Positions 11,692 to 17,303 of a stretch of 34,141 nt of DNA are shown here, in pieces; the first letter of the stretch is position 1; the number at the start of each line of letters is the position of its first letter. Made by a program: the position numbers and the translations under genes. A model generated the notes under the pieces. That model ran no database searches. It had not been told where the DNA came from and saw only the letters and a list, made by a program, of their open reading frames with translations. This DNA comes from a virus: the UHGV virus genome UHGV-0461192. The stretch is one strand, 5' to 3'.

Positions 11692-11933
11692 ATTGACTTA
11701 GAAAAAGTCCGGGGCTATAGTTTCCGCGCAGCCGCAAAATCGGTTGCCGGGATTGGCGTCCCGGATATCTAAGTGACGCATAGCCGCGTTAGCGGTTTTT
11801 TTATGTGTTAGGCACGGCCACATTCGCATTATGGTGGGCTGTGTGGGGGCTTCTGTGGAAGCGCCGGGTTCACTTAGCCGGTTACGCCAACCCTGCACAG
11901 CTCACCACCAGATGATTGGCGTCGCTGGTGGTG

Positions 11934-12752
11934 ATGAAAAAAACACTAAGTGAGGCCACTGCGATGACAGTCCAAATATCTGCGGAATCCCTTTCTCCGC
12001 TACATCATAACCAACTTCCCGTCATCACTACTGAATTGCTTGCCAGTTTGTATGGCACGGAAGTAAATGGTATCCAGCAAAACTTCAAGCGCAACATCGC
12101 CAGATTTGTCGTAGGAAAGCATTTTTTTAAGCTGGAAGGTAATGAATTACGCGACTTCAAAAACAGACTGACAGATAGTCAGTCAGTTGCTAAACATACC
12201 CGATCCCTCATTCTCTGGACAGAACGCGGCGCAGCTCGCCATGCCAAAATGCTGGAAACAGAACAGGCCTGGGAAGTTTTCGAAAAGCTGGAAGATTGTT
12301 ATTTTAGCCAGCGTCCAGAGAGGCGGAGTACAACTACCGATGACCGTACTCCCTTGCGTGATGCCGTTAATATACTGGTCGGCAAGAAAGGCATGATGTA
12401 TCCCGATGCCTACACCATGATTCATCAACGCTTCGCCGTCTCTCACATAGAACAACTGTCACAGACGCAAATGTTAGAGGCGATTGAATACATCCACTGC
12501 CTGCTACTCGATGAAAATCACCCAACCATTCCAGATTTTTCTTTTATCACCACTATCAAAAATGGAAAAGTGACCGGGATGCGCCATGTTGCCAAAGGCG
12601 AACATCTGATGACCTTTGACGCTTTCAAAGAGATCGCTGAGCGGGCAGGGTATCTGGTGATCCACAGCGACAATCTGCGAAGTATGACACTGGATAAATT
12701 GATGGTAATGGGGAAAAAGTCGGCTATATCCGTTGCTAATTCAGCATTTTGA
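11934..12752 (+). CDS. ORF6N-domain protein, putative antirepressor
   Basis: N-terminal LPVITTELLASLYGTEVNGIQQNFKRNIARFVVGKHFFKLEGNEL resembles the ORF6N antirepressor-type domain; ORF opens with TTG at 11916, ATG at 11934 or 11964 more likely. Confidence 0.55.
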   Translation: MKKTLSEATAMTVQISAESLSPLHHNQLPVITTELLASLYGTEVNGIQQNFKRNIARFVVGKHFFKLEGNELRDFKNRLTDSQSVAKHTRSLILWTERGAARHAKMLETEQAWEVFEKLEDCYFSQRPERRSTTTDDRTPLRDAVNILVGKKGMMYPDAYTMIHQRFAVSHIEQLSQTQMLEAIEYIHCLLLDENHPTIPDFSFITTIKNGKVTGMRHVAKGEHLMTFDAFKEIAERAGYLVIHSDNLRSMTLDKLMVMGKKSAISVANSAF

Positions 12753-12780
12753 CAGGTTGTTTGGGGCGGAAATACTCTAT

Positions 12781-12848
12781 TTGCGCTTAAAAAGGTATTT
12801 GACCACGACCAGCACGAGACCGAATACCTCTGTCAAAGTACCGCCCAT
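12781..12848. repeat. direct repeat copy A (remnant of the 3' end of a homologue of the 16200-16805 gene)
   Basis: 68 bp about 93 percent identical to 16204-16271; on the minus strand encodes MGGTLTEVFGLVLVVVKYLFKRK-stop with an in-frame stop 4 codons upstream. Confidence 0.75.
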
Positions 12849-12926
12849 ATAAAACAGTTACATATGCACTTGATGACTAAGCTGGCACCAGGTTAACACC
12901 TGGCGCCAGCTTGAAGGAGACTTCAG

Positions 12927-13850
12927 TTATTGGTTTCTGAGGAAAGCGATTCTTGAAAGGGTCATTTGCGTCTGGCAGTCGACCATTTTCTTGACTTCAG
13001 CATCTGTTCCCTGCATTGAAACTTTACCGCACATAGCATCCTTAGTTTTGATCCACTGACGCTGAGAAGGCAGCAAATCTTTTTTCTTCGCCGGGGTTAA
13101 CTTGCTCCAGACGGTACTCAAATCAGAGTCGGCATTCGCAAATGCCATTCGGGACTGATCAAGGTTGTCAGCTTTTTGCGGCTGAAGTTGTGCCTGTCTC
13201 TCTATTTGCTTCTCCGCCTCATACTTAGCCTGTTCTTGCGCCCTGAGTTGCACCTGTTGTTCCGCTTCAATTTGACTCTGTTGGGCATCCTTAGCCTGCT
13301 GGATTTTCTGCTGCTCAACGATCGGGGTGATAATGGAAAGCGATGTCAGTAAAGCGGCGCCCACTGATATCGGATTATCAGTAGAGGTTTTTACAAAAAC
13401 GTTTTTCTGATCGTCGGTCGCCTGCACGGTGTAGGTGATACGTTTTGAAAAGGCGTTTGCGTTGTTCTCCAAAAACAGGCTTTCCATTTGCTTATCGAGA
13501 TTACGATTAAAATTCTTTCTGTAAGCATCTGAAAGCTGGACGTACTCGTTCGCAGATAGAGTCATCGTCACGGTCCCTTCACAAGTTTTCATTGTGCTGC
13601 CCGTGTCACTTGATGTTGTGGAGATCTCAGAGATGGCTAGTTTGATCTTGTCCAGTGTGCTTCGTTTGGTCTGATTAGTGACATCAGGGTATTTATCGAC
13701 CTGTTCAGAGAGTCCTTCATAAGCAGATTTTTTTAATAAATCCATGAGAGCTGACTGGGTTATTTCCGAAGAACAACCGATCTCATCTTTTTTGTTATCA
13801 CAGCCTGTAAGGGCAATGGCGAGTAAGAGTACTGAGTATTTTAATCTCAT
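12927..13850 (-). CDS. lipoprotein with C-terminal DUF1311/LprI-like domain
   Basis: signal peptide plus lipobox (LLLAIALTGC); Q-rich coiled region; C-terminal QRQWIKTKDAMCG...DCQTQMTLSRIAFLRN fits the DUF1311 pattern. Confidence 0.6.
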   Translation of the reverse strand: MRLKYSVLLLAIALTGCDNKKDEIGCSSEITQSALMDLLKKSAYEGLSEQVDKYPDVTNQTKRSTLDKIKLAISEISTTSSDTGSTMKTCEGTVTMTLSANEYVQLSDAYRKNFNRNLDKQMESLFLENNANAFSKRITYTVQATDDQKNVFVKTSTDNPISVGAALLTSLSIITPIVEQQKIQQAKDAQQSQIEAEQQVQLRAQEQAKYEAEKQIERQAQLQPQKADNLDQSRMAFANADSDLSTVWSKLTPAKKKDLLPSQRQWIKTKDAMCGKVSMQGTDAEVKKMVDCQTQMTLSRIAFLRNQ

Positions 13851-15038
13851 GAATTCCCTTTAGAGTAAGGATTGGTTTTTAAGACGCGGTCTGTAATCAG
13901 TCCCGAGAGCTACAGTAAACAACGCTGAGCACTGAACGCATCACAGGTAAGGTAAAAGGTGATATCGGCAAAGGCTGTGAAACCTTTAATTCAACAGATG
14001 GGAACGGTATGCGCAGGATCCTGTAACGACGCTCCCAAAACCGGAAACCTGTAAGGCATGTTTTCGCTGCTGAACTTAATATACGAACCTGCACTATCAT
14101 GAACATATTTTATATCGTTATACCCCGAGTGATTGTGCCCGGCAATGGATAGTGTCCTGGAGGAACTATTTCTACTGTAAAAGGTAGATATTTAATTTCA
14201 GTTTTGAATTATTCCCTGCTGTTAATAACAATGGCTGTATATGGCACCGAGTAGGCATTTTTTCGCTTACTGAAGGGCAGCTGTGAGCGAGGAACAGACT
14301 TTCCCTACTTCGTTGAGAGTACACCTAGTACAATCAAGGCTAAATGATAAAAATATACAAAATATCATATTTATGATATATATAATGGCATTAATCTTAT
14401 TCTTGGATTACGTTGAAAGGGTAATATTATATTTGTGTAACATAGTTTAGATAACAATGCCGTTATGGGGGGGGGAAAGACATTTCAACATATTAGCTTT
14501 GTATCTAACGCTCATGTAGATCTCGATTTTGAACTTAAAGAACAATTATTTTTTAGAGAGCAAGGTATTTTTGGGGAACAAAAACATAAAGTAATGGAGA
14601 GAGGAGAATGTATCAAAAAATCATCGATTTAATTTAGATTGTCCGTATAGTTGGGGGTAAGTCGAATCGCTGGGCTACATGGAATATTGTGTCAAGTAAA
14701 AATATATTTCAATCTTGCAATAACCGATTGTTGAAAATAATGTCAAATCTTAATGGTGAATGGGGAGAATATAATAAACATGAGTCGATATTATGCAAAT
14801 GGATTTAAATATTTTATACCCGAAGACATAGGGTTTCGAGAGTTCGATGAGACTACTTTGAATGCTTTCGAATTTGCTGGCTAAAACATATAGGTTATAT
14901 CTTACATCTGTTTGTAATGGAGCGTAGATGCGACAAGCTACACCATAATAATCATATTATGATATATTGTTAAGTTGTTATGGCATTAAATAAAATTATG
15001 TCATTTTGTTAACCAAGCAAGAATCAAAGGACTTTTAG

Positions 15039-15737
15039 ATGGGTACGGCATTAATTTCAAGCTTTATTAGTGGTGCAATAGCTATAATCTCTATTGCTAT
15101 ATCTACTTATAATCAGAATAGAATAAACAAGCTCAATGAATCACTGGATGTAAGGAGAAAACATCAGTACTATATTGAACCGTTAATTCGCTCAGCTTCA
15201 GACTTACAAAGCCGTATTTATAATATATTAGAATTGGGGTTCATTGAAGAGTTTTATCATAATGGGAATAAGCGCCAACAAGATTATGTTATCAACAATA
15301 CTGTTTTTCTTTTTTCCCAGTTTTTTGCATGGACAGAAGCTGCCCGCATAGACATTCAATACCTTAGCCTAGAAAAAAATAAAAAAATGAGGGAGTTTAT
15401 TAGATTACAGAACAATATTAACTCATTAATCCAAACAGACGTCTTTGGTCAGTATTTTATGTTTTTCATAGGAGAGCAGAGAGCTATTGCAGAAAAGATG
15501 CTGATATCAACAGATACTGGATTTGATTGCATAGGTTACGGCAGTTTCACAAAGGAAAATTGCTTTATCAATGAGCCATTTTTTTTAGATTTAAACAATG
15601 AAGTGATAAATATGACAAGAGATATCGGAATTTATAAAGAAAGGCTAATCAGAATACAGCACGCGTTAATCGATTTAATTAATTTTCTTGATCCTGGCAT
15701 GATTCGATTTGACGGAAAAAAATATGGAAAAATATAA
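15039..15737 (+). CDS. hypothetical membrane-anchored protein (orphan, low GC)
   Basis: 232-aa ORF in a strongly AT-rich stretch; N-terminal hydrophobic helix (ALISSFISGAIAIISIAI) followed by a soluble domain; no recognisable family. Confidence 0.5.
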   Translation: MGTALISSFISGAIAIISIAISTYNQNRINKLNESLDVRRKHQYYIEPLIRSASDLQSRIYNILELGFIEEFYHNGNKRQQDYVINNTVFLFSQFFAWTEAARIDIQYLSLEKNKKMREFIRLQNNINSLIQTDVFGQYFMFFIGEQRAIAEKMLISTDTGFDCIGYGSFTKENCFINEPFFLDLNNEVINMTRDIGIYKERLIRIQHALIDLINFLDPGMIRFDGKKYGKI

Positions 15738-15921
15738 CCCAGATGATTCGTATCAAGGTAAGTTGCTATATGTATCAATTTAATTATGGTTGGGTGAAAT
15801 TTATGTTAATAGTAGCGGAGGGTTAGTTAAAATATGCTCTCAGTGATTTTTGGATAGTTCTTTTATTTATCATTGAAAGTAAATATGTATAGCTTCAAGA
15901 TTTACAAGTGAATCTGTTTAT

Positions 15922-15955
15922 TGACAGTCCGCTTATGGCACAGAGCGGACTGTCA
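15922..15955. terminator. strong hairpin between convergent genes (putative bidirectional terminator)
   Basis: perfect 11-bp stem TGACAGTCCGC / GCGGACTGTCA with 12-nt loop, A/T-rich flanks. Confidence 0.45.
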
Positions 15956-16199
15956 TATTAAATTTGGCTCCACGCCATAGATGTGTCAGCTCATATCTTA
16001 TCTAATACACACAATAACTTTCTCATTCTTGGAGAATTATTTTTTTAAGGGTAGGTGTTGACGTTAGAGCAAAAGAATGGTGATTTTTTTGATGTGTATT
16101 ACGTTGGAACTGATGGGAATAACTATCTGTTTTCAACGCACTGCTAATTTATCAAGGCCCTTTGATCAGGGCCTTCGAAAGACTGTTGGACCGAGAGAG

Positions 16200-16805
16200 T
16201 TACTTGCGTTTAAAAAGGTATTTTGTCACGACCAGCACGAGGCCGAATACCTCTGTCAAAGTACCGCCCATGTACAACTGTAGTGTTAAATCCTCAAATT
16301 CCAGCTTACCTGCGCCGTCGGCAATAAATACACCATTCATTATCAGAAGTTGGAAAGCAAGGATAATCAGGAACCATTTCCCGTATCGTTTTTTTAGAGC
16401 GATTTCTGCTTCAAAATCTTTGTTGTTGAGTTGTTTGCGCTCATGCTCGGTATCAAGTGAATTCACCTGTTTCACAGATGTGAACTCGGTCAAGATTTTA
16501 CTCTCAGTACGGGTGACTTGTTGAGAGGGTGTAGCAGTTGGAATTCTTTTGCTAGACGCAGCTACAGCCATTTTGCGAGCTTCGGCAGCTCTTTTTCTGG
16601 CTATTCCGCGAATACGGACAGCCGTTTTTTTGGGGGCGTGCGAAACCTTTGGCTGAGGTGAAGCTTCGTCAGGAGACTGAACCGGAGTTTCATCGTCCTC
16701 CGGCTCAACCTCTTCTGCTAACTGACGGTGTAGGTTGAGGGAATCCTTCAGTCTGCGTGCTACTTCCTGTTTGAAACGGCTGTTAAAATCGTCATCCGAT
16801 GGCAT
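16200..16805 (-). CDS. hypothetical protein with charged N-terminal region and C-terminal transmembrane helices
   Basis: 201-aa ORF directly downstream of (4 aa gap) the ImmA-like gene; C-terminal hydrophobic segments (WFLIILAFQLLIMNGVFIA, VFGLVLVVTKYLF). Confidence 0.55.
   Translation of the reverse strand: MPSDDDFNSRFKQEVARRLKDSLNLHRQLAEEVEPEDDETPVQSPDEASPQPKVSHAPKKTAVRIRGIARKRAAEARKMAVAASSKRIPTATPSQQVTRTESKILTEFTSVKQVNSLDTEHERKQLNNKDFEAEIALKKRYGKWFLIILAFQLLIMNGVFIADGAGKLEFEDLTLQLYMGGTLTEVFGLVLVVTKYLFKRK
16204..16271. repeat. direct repeat copy B (3' end of the 16200-16805 gene)
   Basis: matches 12781-12848 with 5 mismatches in 68 bp. Confidence 0.75.
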
Positions 16806-16814
16806 TTTAAAGCG

Positions 16815-17303
16815 TTACCCCAACCTCAAGTTCTTTAAACGATAAGTCATCGCATCGTCAGATACGCCAAAATAATGCGCCATTATATAACTTGGTTGAC
16901 CGTCAGCGTGCAGTTTTCTGACCTCATCTACCGGCATCAGAAGTTCTGCTGCGAACTTGTTTGCAAAAATTTCATCAGGATGCGTTCCGGCGCTTGCGGT
17001 TTCGCCACGTAAATCAACGTACTCATATTCATCGCTATGCGATGCTTGCCGGGCGATGTAATGCCCCAACTCATGCCCACATGAAAAACGTTGACGAACT
17101 TTGTTGTCATCACTGTTTAGAAAGATCGCTGGATCTTGATCTTTTTGTTTAATCAGTGCGCCAGAAACTTTCCCAGGAAGATCGGTAATAAAAACATCTA
17201 ATCCCATGTCGTGAGCAATTTTCGCTGGATCAACAGGGAAACCACGCCCGCACCAGAACGTGTCCAGCACTCGCCGGGCGTGCTCTCTTGGGTTGGTAGC
17301 CAT
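16815..17303 (-). CDS. ImmA/IrrE-family zinc metallopeptidase
   Basis: 162-aa ORF with HEXXH motif (GHELGHY) in a context typical of ImmA/IrrE (DUF955) peptidases; GGAGG RBS upstream. Confidence 0.7.
   Translation of the reverse strand: MATNPREHARRVLDTFWCGRGFPVDPAKIAHDMGLDVFITDLPGKVSGALIKQKDQDPAIFLNSDDNKVRQRFSCGHELGHYIARQASHSDEYEYVDLRGETASAGTHPDEIFANKFAAELLMPVDEVRKLHADGQPSYIMAHYFGVSDDAMTYRLKNLRLG

What the first reader, a model, noticed from the sequence alone, without database searches (positions are those of the whole stretch)
15039..15737. Orphan low-GC gene for a membrane-anchored protein inside the cargo cassette
The gene has a single N-terminal hydrophobic helix followed by a ~200-aa soluble domain with no motif I recognise, is very AT-rich relative to its surroundings, and is isolated by long AT-rich non-coding flanks and a strong downstream hairpin. 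This is the typical appearance of a single-gene superinfection-exclusion or abortive-infection determinant carried as a prophage moron.
Basis: inference. Interest (0 to 1): 0.55.

Follow-up and report, generated by a model that had tools for sequence, protein, structure and literature searches.

The report
Standalone relative of RT-defence membrane partner
The gene is real and sits on a portable 1.7-kb cassette that moves between unrelated E. coli prophages. It is not an orphan: it belongs to a large uncharacterised family distantly related to the membrane protein that partners reverse-transcriptase/nitrilase anti-phage systems, which makes it a plausible but untested single-gene phage-defence determinant.

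Summary
There is a 232-aa ORF (15039-15737, +) in a ~32% GC island, with non-coding flanks and a strong downstream hairpin.

The gene lies in a cargo slot (14252-16177) of an E. coli prophage. Related prophages carry a GIY-YIG nuclease cassette in that slot instead. The same 1.7-kb cassette (14280-16009) occupies the Fun(Z) lysogenic-conversion slot of P2-like prophages.

The protein is not an orphan. Its family has about 1,900 clusters at 50% identity, spans many phyla, has no Pfam or NCBIfam model, and is only ever named 'lysogenic protein'.

It is a distant homologue (hhalign 96%, E 2e-9) of 'RTasTM', the one-TM protein encoded just after UG5-large RT-nitrilase defence genes. It shares that protein's size, architecture and predicted secondary-structure order. 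Unlike RTasTM it always stands alone: there is no RT in the window or within 10 kb in 80 loci, and no conserved partner.

Predicted topology is N-out/C-in, with a cytoplasmic helical domain that has no structural match. Neighbours are often defence genes.

Best reading: an autonomous membrane-anchored phage-defence module carried as a moron. The defence function and the mechanism are inferred, not shown. Classical injection-blocking exclusion is less likely.

The parts
14252..16177 (.). Variable cargo slot of the prophage, between the LprI-like gene and the 201-aa / ImmA-IrrE gene pair.
   Evidence: Backbone homology (97-98%) with prophages of E. coli S42 and MEI3O-23 ends at 14251 and resumes at 16178. 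Those prophages carry a 65-aa ORF, a GIY-YIG nuclease and a 134-aa ORF here instead.
14280..16009 (+). Portable 1.73-kb cassette (leader, gene, terminator) shared with P2-like prophages.
14280..15038 (+). AT-rich non-coding leader. It must contain the gene's promoter, which has not been located.
   Evidence: No ORF is conserved with P2-EC58 and there is no Rfam hit. Divergence (JC 0.205) is about equal to the synonymous rate of the CDS (dS 0.163), so most of it looks neutral. The first ~120 nt and the last ~100 nt are the best conserved. The -10 predicted in the P2-EC58 record (TATAGA) reads CATAGG here. Promoter-like sites are no more frequent than in shuffled sequence. tblastn finds no RT-nitrilase relic.
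14467..14475 (+). Homopolymeric G9 tract in the leader, length-variable between strains.
   Evidence: G8, G9 and G10 occur in otherwise identical ST131 copies. The tract is absent from the P2-type allele. Its significance is unknown, and it could be assembly error.
15026..15031 (+). Shine-Dalgarno sequence AAAGGA, 7 nt before the ATG.
   Evidence: Conserved in P2-EC58, where the record annotates it as the ribosome-binding site.
15039..15737 (+). CDS of 232 aa (WP_000536231.1; 'hypothetical' or 'lysogenic protein'; phrog_5606). It has an N-terminal TM anchor and a cytoplasmic all-alpha domain, and is a standalone relative of RTasTM.
   Evidence: ORF and purifying selection. PHROG family. Family size. 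Invariant polar motifs. AF2 model. Homology to RTasTM.
15045..15110 (+). Segment encoding the single transmembrane helix (residues ~3-24).
   Evidence: The best 19-residue Kyte-Doolittle segment starts at residue 3 (mean 2.16). All 63 aligned members have exactly one such segment. The positive charge lies on its C-terminal flank in 62 of 63, giving N-out/C-in topology.
15922..15965 (+). Intrinsic-terminator-like hairpin and tail that ends the cassette's transcription unit.
   Evidence: 12-bp perfect inverted repeat with a 10-nt spacer, flagged as terminator-like. dG -26 kcal/mol, z -4.2. Conserved in P2-EC58, where it is one arm of the annotated 'inverted repeat'.

Best explanation
Window 14280-16009 is a self-contained moron cassette: an AT-rich leader, one gene and a terminator hairpin. 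It has been exchanged between accessory slots of unrelated temperate phages.

Its product is anchored in the inner membrane by one N-terminal helix. A ~200-aa all-alpha domain faces the cytoplasm and carries a cluster of invariant polar residues (D55, Q57, S58, R59, N62, Y83, Q94, W98, E100, R103, E146, Q147, R148, D218).

The protein belongs to a large, uncharacterised and phylogenetically patchy family. That family is the autonomous sister of 'RTasTM' (Mestre cluster 1858), the one-TM protein encoded right after UG5-large RT-nitrilase defence genes and reported as required for their immunity.

I infer that the protein works alone as a lysogen-protecting anti-phage module. In this picture the cytoplasmic domain binds or senses a phage-derived or infection-induced cue. 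The anchored protein then acts at the membrane, most likely by oligomerising and compromising membrane integrity or energetics, which gives an abortive-infection-type outcome.

What is shown: the cassette boundaries and its mobility, the gene's reality and selection, the family breadth, the homology to RTasTM, the absence of any RT or conserved partner, and the predicted topology and fold.

What is inferred: the defence function, the sensing step and the membrane-effector step.
For: Cassette and moron status
- Sharp swap boundaries, with different cargo in sister prophages.
- The same cassette in the Fun(Z) slot of P2-like prophages. P2's Fun(Z) record says 'cloned gene blocks growth of T5; lysogenic conversion'.
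- GC 0.32 against about 0.5 in the surroundings, and a terminator-like hairpin.
- Present in 413 of 5,426 complete E. coli genomes.

A real, constrained gene
- dN/dS 0.25 and 23 invariant columns across 63 members down to ~35% identity.

Family
- 290 hits with no Pfam domain; 1,931 representatives at E<=1e-3; 270 confirmed matches in a 185,579-species genome set, across more than 7 phyla.

Link to defence
- PADLOC RTasTM hits for the query and five relatives, E 1e-10 to 6e-5.
- hhalign of the family profile against the validated E. coli E101 '1TM' protein: 96.0%, E 3.8e-9. Profile against profile: 96.2%, E 2.2e-9 over 144 columns.
- Same length (232 vs 229 aa), the same single N-terminal TM, and the same order of predicted helices and beta-hairpin in two independent AF2 models.
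- RTasTM proteins do sit 4-8 nt-overlapped behind ~960-aa RVT_1 proteins. The RT-nitrilase + 1TM system is experimentally validated (PMC9122126), and the TM protein is reported as necessary (PMC9226505).

Autonomy
- No RT-nitrilase in the window or within 10 kb of 80 loci, and no neighbour family shared by more than 7 of 70 loci.

Neighbourhoods
- SIR2+HerA, toxin-antitoxin clusters, an AAA_15+DUF4435 (PARIS-like) pair, Juk, Mokosh, MADS, restriction enzymes and PDC candidates.

Topology
- N-out/C-in in 62 of 63 members.

Modularity
- Rare fusions of the domain to a chymotrypsin-fold serine protease.
Against: - No experiment shows that this protein, or any member of the standalone family, blocks phage.
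- The homology to RTasTM is remote (about 20-25% identity). Pairwise BLASTP gives only E 0.001.
- The function of RTasTM/DRT1b is itself unknown. DRT1 and DRT11 work without a TM partner (PMC13275509, PMC13436386).
- A single TM helix is not in itself a pore.
- Many neighbours of homologues are housekeeping genes, and I could not run a controlled defence-island enrichment test.
- The family is rare on viral contigs (7 loci).
- The promoter is not identified.
Confidence: 0.45

Rival explanations
1. Classical superinfection exclusion. The membrane protein blocks DNA injection or entry of incoming phages at the inner membrane, as P22 SieA or T4 Imm do (my own knowledge of those systems), without killing the cell.
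For: It is membrane-anchored, prophage-borne, and replaces the T5-blocking Fun(Z) gene in P2-like phages. It is a single gene with no partner.
Against: The conserved domain is predicted cytoplasmic, with only ~2-4 residues outside. The family is mostly chromosomal, spread over many phyla and rare in viral contigs, which is unlike narrow-range Sie proteins. The invariant polar cluster suggests ligand binding or catalysis. Pfam and PHROGs give no hit to a family of known function, Sie families included.
Confidence: 0.15
2. Non-defence lysogenic-conversion or accessory membrane protein, with an envelope, stress, signalling or host-interaction function. It would be carried as a moron for reasons unrelated to phage.
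For: There is no direct defence evidence. Immediate neighbours of many homologues are housekeeping genes such as biotin carboxylase, YchF and ALAD. One member is fused to a LuxR-type HTH. The prophage is common in ST131 clinical isolates.
Against: Its only detectable relative is a defence-system component. It has a patchy, HGT-like distribution. It recurs next to SIR2-HerA, PARIS-like, Juk, Mokosh, MADS and restriction genes and inside P2 accessory slots.
Confidence: 0.2
3. It acts in trans on an RT-nitrilase (UG1/UG5) system encoded elsewhere. It would either be that system's missing TM partner, or a prophage-encoded decoy that neutralises the host's RT-nitrilase defence (anti-defence).
For: It is homologous to the RT-associated TM protein, with the core motifs preserved. 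Most UG1/UG5-large loci lack an adjacent TM gene (PMC9226505, PMC13275509). P2-EC58 also carries an Abi-P2 RT at another locus (PMC9508834).
Against: There is no RT-nitrilase in the window or within 10 kb of 80 loci. The standalone family (about 1,900 clusters, many phyla) is far broader than the RT-linked clade (29 sequence clusters at 90% identity, those named all Enterobacterales), so most members cannot depend on such an RT. The two clades are only ~20% identical, which argues against interchangeable binding.
Confidence: 0.07
4. A membrane toxin or addiction-type element that stabilises the prophage or cassette, with no role against phage.
For: It is a small membrane protein on a mobile cassette. 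Some homologues lie among toxin-antitoxin genes.
Against: There is no conserved adjacent antitoxin gene or antisense RNA. IS1-disrupted and cassette-free prophages are stably maintained. Purifying selection acts on a 200-aa structured domain rather than a short hydrophobic peptide.
Confidence: 0.05

Closest known systems
RTasTM: the one-TM protein encoded downstream of UG5-large RT-nitrilase defence genes (PADLOC PDLC03013/PDLC03799; per PMC9226505, Mestre cluster 1858; 'RT-nitrilase + 1TM' of E. coli E101, Rousset 2022)
   Same: Detectable homology (hhalign 96%, E 2e-9). Shared core residues include Y83, T88, Q94, W98, R103, E146, Q147, E152, C164 and Y167 (read from the alignments). Nearly the same length (232 vs 229 aa), a single N-terminal TM, the same order of predicted helices and beta-hairpin, and carriage on mobile elements in Enterobacterales.
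   Different: It is never next to an RT, whereas RTasTM genes overlap the end of the RT gene by 4-8 nt. Identity is only ~20-25%. The N-terminal DLQSR-YN motif, invariant in this family, is not kept in RTasTM. This family is far larger and spans many phyla.
DRT1b: the TM protein adjacent to ~18% of UG1 (DRT type 1) RT-nitrilase genes (Mestre cluster 85)
   Same: The same general concept of a small TM protein attached to a class-3 UG RT. The literature treats clusters 85 and 1858 together as the TM partners (PMC9226505, PMC13275509).
   Different: I did not have a DRT1b sequence, so homology was not tested. DRT1b is RT-linked and this protein is not. The function of DRT1b is also unknown; the literature only speculates that it acts like the Hailong HalA channel (PMC13275509).
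P2 Fun(Z), the lysogenic-conversion gene of phage P2
   Same: It occupies the same slot in P2-like prophages, next to the tail-sheath gene FI and antisense to the late genes. Fun(Z) is a non-essential gene that blocks T5 (record note).
   Different: Fun(Z) is 528 aa and shows no sequence similarity: tblastn against 50,697 phage records found only P2-EC58. This is a positional analogy only.
Single-TM or few-TM effector proteins of abortive-infection systems (CBASS/Pycsar TM effectors, SLATT; Hailong HalA)
   Same: A membrane-anchored protein with a cytoplasmic domain in a defence context. These are proposed to act by membrane disruption after a cytoplasmic signal (PMC9122126 discussion).
   Different: PADLOC and Pfam show no homology to any of them. 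Those effectors work with a separate sensor or signal generator, whereas here no partner exists. Pore or channel activity is purely hypothetical for this family.

Membership tests
RT-nitrilase-associated TM protein (RTasTM / cluster 1858; DRT UG5-large partner) | Significant match to the family's sequence profile | tested here: inconclusive
   PADLOC RTasTM gives E 1.8e-5 (22 bits) over residues 71-204, whereas a true member scores E 1e-164. hhalign gives 96% probability, E 2e-9. This supports superfamily-level homology but not membership of the RT-linked clade.
RT-nitrilase-associated TM protein (RTasTM / cluster 1858; DRT UG5-large partner) | About 230 aa, with a single N-terminal TM helix and an alpha-helical C-terminal domain | tested here: met
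   232 aa and one TM at residues ~3-24. The AF2 model has the same secondary-structure order as the RTasTM model.
RT-nitrilase-associated TM protein (RTasTM / cluster 1858; DRT UG5-large partner) | Encoded immediately downstream of, and co-oriented with, an RT-nitrilase (UG1/UG5-large) gene | tested here: not met
   The upstream gene is a divergently oriented LprI-like lipoprotein gene 1.2 kb away. tblastn finds no RT-nitrilase similarity in the window or within +-10 kb of 80 homologue loci. No RVT_1 or CN_hydrolase appears among the 25 commonest Pfam families of the +-1 neighbours.
RT-nitrilase-associated TM protein (RTasTM / cluster 1858; DRT UG5-large partner) | Required for immunity conferred by the RT-nitrilase | not testable with these tools
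   This needs genetics. It is reported for the E101 system only (PMC9226505, citing PMC9122126).
Prophage moron (accessory cassette) | Present or absent, or replaced by other cargo, between conserved genes of closely related prophages | tested here: met
   S42 and MEI3O-23 prophages are 97-98% identical up to 14251 and from 16178, but carry GIY-YIG cargo in between.
Prophage moron (accessory cassette) | Base composition distinct from the surrounding phage genome | tested here: met
   GC 0.32 against about 0.45-0.55.
Prophage moron (accessory cassette) | Its own promoter and terminator (an autonomous transcription unit) | tested here: inconclusive
   A terminator-like hairpin is present and conserved. 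The gene is antisense to, or divergent from, its neighbours in both phage contexts, so it needs its own promoter. However, no convincing conserved sigma-70 promoter was found.
Prophage moron (accessory cassette) | Not essential for the phage | tested here: met
   It is absent from sister prophages. It is interrupted by IS1 in strain MSB1_4E, and IS1 sits in the leader in several ST131 genomes.
Superinfection-exclusion (Sie) membrane proteins | Homology to a described Sie family, or an exposed extracytoplasmic domain | tested here: not met
   Pfam, PHROGs and NCBIfam give no hit to a family of known function, Sie families included; phrog_5606 has no assigned function. The bulk of the protein is predicted cytoplasmic.
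Superinfection-exclusion (Sie) membrane proteins | Blocks DNA entry of superinfecting phage | not testable with these tools
   This needs infection assays.
P2 Fun(Z) | Sequence homology to Fun(Z) (528 aa) | tested here: not met
   tblastn of the protein against the phage collection, which includes P2 NC_001895, returned only P2-EC58.

The most novel reading that the evidence does not exclude
The standalone family is a previously unrecognised, ancient and widespread single-gene anti-phage system, with about 1,900 clusters at 50% identity across more than 7 phyla, no Pfam model and a fold with no structural match. Sensing and membrane-level execution would be combined in one membrane-anchored polypeptide. 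The RT-nitrilase DRT systems (UG5-large, perhaps UG1) would have recruited their enigmatic TM partner from it. Working out this simpler autonomous protein would then reveal what the DRT TM partner does.
Probability: 0.35. Interest if true: 0.7.

Novelty: new variant of a known kind. Interest (0 to 1): 0.55.

Why it matters
If the defence reading is right, three things follow.

1. [quoted passage not shown] PADLOC shows only a sub-threshold hit, and Pfam and NCBIfam show nothing. This matters for predicting phage susceptibility, for example in phage therapy.

2. A large family that the databases label only 'hypothetical' or 'lysogenic protein' gains a testable function.

3. It offers a simple, RT-free model for the least understood component of class-3 UG/DRT systems, the TM partner. 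That partner's role (effector, channel or anchor) is still only guessed at in the 2022-2026 literature.

The locus also gives a clean example of a 1.7-kb defence-type cassette hopping between the accessory slots of unrelated phage types.

Tried and rejected
- **Direct family searches.** Pfam, NCBIfam and PDB sequence searches with the single protein found nothing useful.
- **Leader as a gene or RNA.** There is no Rfam hit at E<=1. The small ORFs are not conserved. tblastn finds no RT-nitrilase relic. Divergence is about equal to dS.
- **Flanking inverted repeats as transposon ends.** The repeats annotated in P2-EC58 reduce to a 37-nt, 76% match between the left edge and the terminator hairpin. 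The window has no comparable pair. I rejected this as evidence for a transposon or MITE.
- **The promoter predicted in the P2-EC58 record.** Its -10 is not conserved here, and promoter-like sites are not above shuffled expectation.
- **A conserved partner gene.** None was found.
- **The RT_UG29 hit among +-2 neighbours.** It proved to be a DnaG-primase-like protein in one cyanobacterial contig, not an RT.
- **Literature.** The accession is not mentioned anywhere. Rousset 2022 studied the A-Q (old/tin) hotspot of P2, not the Z/fun slot. The 2026 P2/P4 hotspot preprint and the P2 diversity paper say nothing relevant about this gene.

Full report
**1. The observation**

The window holds an ATG-initiated ORF at 15039-15737 (+), 232 aa. 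An AAAGGA Shine-Dalgarno lies at 15026-15031. It sits in the lowest-GC part of the window: 0.316-0.328 GC for 14501-16000, against roughly 0.45-0.55 elsewhere.

Upstream there are 1,188 nt to the next real gene, a divergently oriented LprI-family lipoprotein gene at 12927-13850 (-). Downstream there are 462 nt to a convergently oriented 201-aa gene.

The small ORFs in the upstream spacer (14465-14632, 14753-14884) are disrupted in the homologous P2-EC58 sequence. Rfam finds nothing at E<=1.

The downstream hairpin is at 15922-15955. It is a 12-bp perfect inverted repeat with dG -26 kcal/mol and z = -4.2, and 0 of 200 shuffles fold as well. A moderately T-rich tail follows.

**2. Genomic setting**

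The window is an E. coli prophage integrated beside the tRNA-Gly/Cys/Leu cluster downstream of pgsA. It is identical, for example, to strain SK1144. Its genes run integrase, replication genes, ORF6N protein, LprI-like lipoprotein, this gene, the 201-aa and ImmA/IrrE genes, Q antiterminator, lysis genes, then lambda-like head and P2-like baseplate genes.

The CDS is present in 413 of 5,426 complete E. coli genomes. In 408 of these it is >=99% identical, and several of the listed strains are labelled O25b:H4-ST131.

About 27 further genomes match only the flank. In two that I opened (S42, MEI3O-23) the prophage backbone is 97-98% identical up to window 14251 and again from 16178. Between those points they carry a 65-aa ORF, a GIY-YIG nuclease and a 134-aa ORF. 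So 14252-16177 is a cargo-swapping slot.

**3. The cassette is portable**

In those prophages the gene lies between the tail-fibre assembly gene and the tail-sheath gene, antisense to both. In P2 itself, fun(Z) lies immediately upstream of the sheath gene FI, on the opposite strand. Its record says 'cloned gene blocks growth of T5; nonessential; lysogenic conversion'.

More distant homologues sit in similar places:
- Providencia (59% identity): again beside a tail-fibre assembly gene of a P2-like remnant.
- Lonsdalea (44% identity): directly after the integrase of a P2-like prophage that also carries an AAA_15+DUF4435 pair, the PARIS domain pair (PMC9122126).

The CDS is under purifying selection between the two E. 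coli alleles (dN/dS 0.25, dS 0.163). The leader and trailer diverge at about the synonymous rate (JC 0.205 and 0.178), so most of the leader looks neutral.

The gene is dispensable. IS1 interrupts it in strain MSB1_4E, and IS1 sits in the leader in several ST131 genomes.

**4. The protein and its family**

Pfam, NCBIfam and PDB sequence searches are empty. PHROGs gives a full-length hit to phrog_5606, which has no assigned function.

The large database search returns 290 clusters down to ~35% identity. None has a Pfam domain, and they are named, if at all, 'lysogenic protein'. An exhaustive profile search finds 1,931 representatives at 50% identity with E<=1e-3, of which 424 have E<=1e-30. Nearly all are 230-280 aa.

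In a 185,579-species genome set, 270 stretches encode a confirmed relative. They span Gamma-, Beta- and Alphaproteobacteria, Acidobacteriota, Cyanobacteria, Nitrospirota, Bacteroidota, Actinomycetota and Firmicutes. Only 7 loci were confirmed in the 2.9 million IMG/VR contigs.

A 63-member alignment has 23 invariant columns, dominated by polar residues in four motifs:
- EPL-R-A-DLQSR-YNI
- Y---NT-F--Q-F-WTE--R
- F-GEQRAIGE
- LDP

All 63 members have exactly one hydrophobic segment, at the N-terminus. In 62 of 63 the positive charge is on its C-terminal flank, so the conserved domain should be cytoplasmic.

**5. The one informative relative**

PADLOC gives a weak hit to 'RTasTM (DRT)': E 1.8e-5 for the query and 1e-10 to 6e-5 for five other members.

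RTasTM corresponds to protein 2 of the experimentally validated 'RT-nitrilase + 1TM' system of E. coli E101 (Rousset et al. 2022, PMC9122126, Table S2A). That protein hits the PADLOC models at E 1e-164.

The homology tests gave:
- My family profile against that protein: hhalign 96.0%, E 3.8e-9.
- Profile against profile, using 20 RTasTM sequences: 96.2%, E 2.2e-9 over 144 columns.
- Pairwise BLASTP: only E 0.001 at 25% identity.

The two families have the same length, the same single N-terminal TM, and the same order of predicted helices and hairpin, in register with the alignment.

RTasTM genes overlap the 3' end of ~960-aa RVT_1 genes by 4-8 nt. The literature describes this TM protein (Mestre clusters 85 and 1858; 'DRT1b') as follows:
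- It accompanies a minority of UG1 and UG5-large RT-nitrilases.
- It was reported as necessary in the E101 system.
- Its function is unknown; the only suggestion is an analogy to the Hailong channel.
- DRT1 and DRT11 can work without it.

(PMC9226505, PMC13275509, PMC13436386.)

**6. This family stands alone**

tblastn with two full RT-nitrilases finds nothing in the window, the leader included. It also finds nothing within +-10 kb of 80 homologue loci.

I clustered the +-4 neighbour proteins of the 70 loci where the gene could be called (556 proteins including the focal gene). No partner family is present in more than 7 loci.

The neighbours are heterogeneous, and many are housekeeping genes. 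A visible minority are defence genes:
- SIR2+HerA, toxin-antitoxin clusters and an ORC/Cdc6-like ATPase.
- Type I and type IV restriction enzymes, JukA and JukB, MkoA and MkoC, MADS components, PbeA, DolB, ZacB, Hhe, AriA and several PDC candidates. By my rough count these are about 15-18 of the 131 immediate neighbours, with a similar share in the next shell.

I had no matched control, so this is suggestive and not a statistic.

Rare long members fuse the domain to a chymotrypsin-fold serine protease. This fits a module that can be coupled to an enzyme.

The standalone family is much broader than the RT-linked clade, which has 29 sequence clusters (90% identity), those named all from Enterobacterales. 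This suggests the RT systems recruited a member of an older autonomous family. That direction is my inference.

**7. Interpretation**

The secure conclusions are these:
- The gene is real and selected.
- It rides a 1.7-kb moron cassette that has moved between the accessory slots of unrelated phages, including the slot of a known phage-exclusion gene.
- Its product is a membrane-anchored, probably cytoplasm-facing helical protein.
- It belongs to a big unannotated family that is the autonomous sister of a defence-system component.

The most likely function is lysogen-protecting phage defence exerted by the protein alone. I would guess at an abortive-infection-type membrane effect triggered through the cytoplasmic domain. 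Neither the defence function nor the mechanism is shown, so I give the whole package 0.45.

The rivals are classical injection-blocking exclusion (0.15), a non-defence accessory membrane function (0.2), action in trans on an RT-nitrilase or as an anti-DRT decoy (0.07), and an addiction toxin (0.05).

**8. Novelty and verdict**

As far as the searchable literature shows, no one has described this family or its link to RTasTM. It fails the defining synteny criterion of RTasTM, so I do not file it as a member. I treat it as a new, RT-independent variant of that kind of protein.

Interest is moderate (0.55). A specialist would find the standalone sister family and its cassette mobility useful and testable. 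The defence claim still rests on guilt by association.

Noticed in passing
[not shown]
   Followed up: partly
window 12778-12858 and 16201-16281: An 81-nt direct repeat (89% identical). The second copy is the 3' end of the 201-aa gene (16200-16805, -). The pair brackets the LprI-like gene plus the cargo slot, which suggests an old duplication or a recombination scar that delimits a larger accessory segment.
   Followed up: partly
L093 6103-8207 (E. coli S42) and L094 (MEI3O-23), equivalent to window 14252-16177: Sister prophages carry alternative cargo in the same slot: a 65-aa ORF, a GIY-YIG nuclease family protein (221 aa) and a 134-aa ORF. This is possibly another defence or homing module.
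   Followed up: no
window 16200-17303 (-): An ImmA/IrrE metallopeptidase (162 aa, HEXXH) hits PADLOC CapP at E 2e-25. It is followed by a 201-aa protein with a C-terminal hydrophobic helix. This pair forms the conserved right border of the slot in all prophage variants seen. It may be a damage-responsive regulator/effector pair.
   Followed up: partly
window 11916-12752 (+) and 12927-13850 (-): The ORF6N-domain protein matches the PADLOC candidate PDC-S05 (E 1e-9). The neighbouring 307-aa protein has a lipoprotein signal (LTGC) and is annotated as LprI-family lysozyme inhibitor. The stretch from 11.9 to 17.3 kb therefore looks like a run of accessory genes.
   Followed up: partly
L092 (E. coli 20AR0479) and hit H27 (strain MSB1_4E): IS1 insertions recur in this island. 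At least six ST131 genomes have IS1 in the leader upstream of the gene, and one strain has IS1 inside the CDS.
   Followed up: partly
proteins P0129 (557 aa) and P0130 (622 aa): Rare family members carry a C-terminal chymotrypsin-fold serine-protease domain. It has a GDSGS motif in P0130, which reads GDVGS in P0129, and matches Glu-specific protease and SGPA at E 3e-6 to 2e-4. P0205 carries a LuxR/GerE HTH.
   Followed up: partly
L051 3471-5387 (Leptolyngbyales MAG): Two genes upstream of a family member is a 639-aa protein that matches only the DnaG-primase-like N-terminus of RT_UG29, and 'RTasDnaG-like'. This is a single case with no RT domain.
   Followed up: partly
L001 214-250 and 1870-1906 (P2-EC58): The 'left/right inverted repeats' annotated in the 2002 record amount to a 37-nt, 76% complementary match between the cassette's left edge and its terminator hairpin. 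The window keeps only the hairpin arm.
   Followed up: yes
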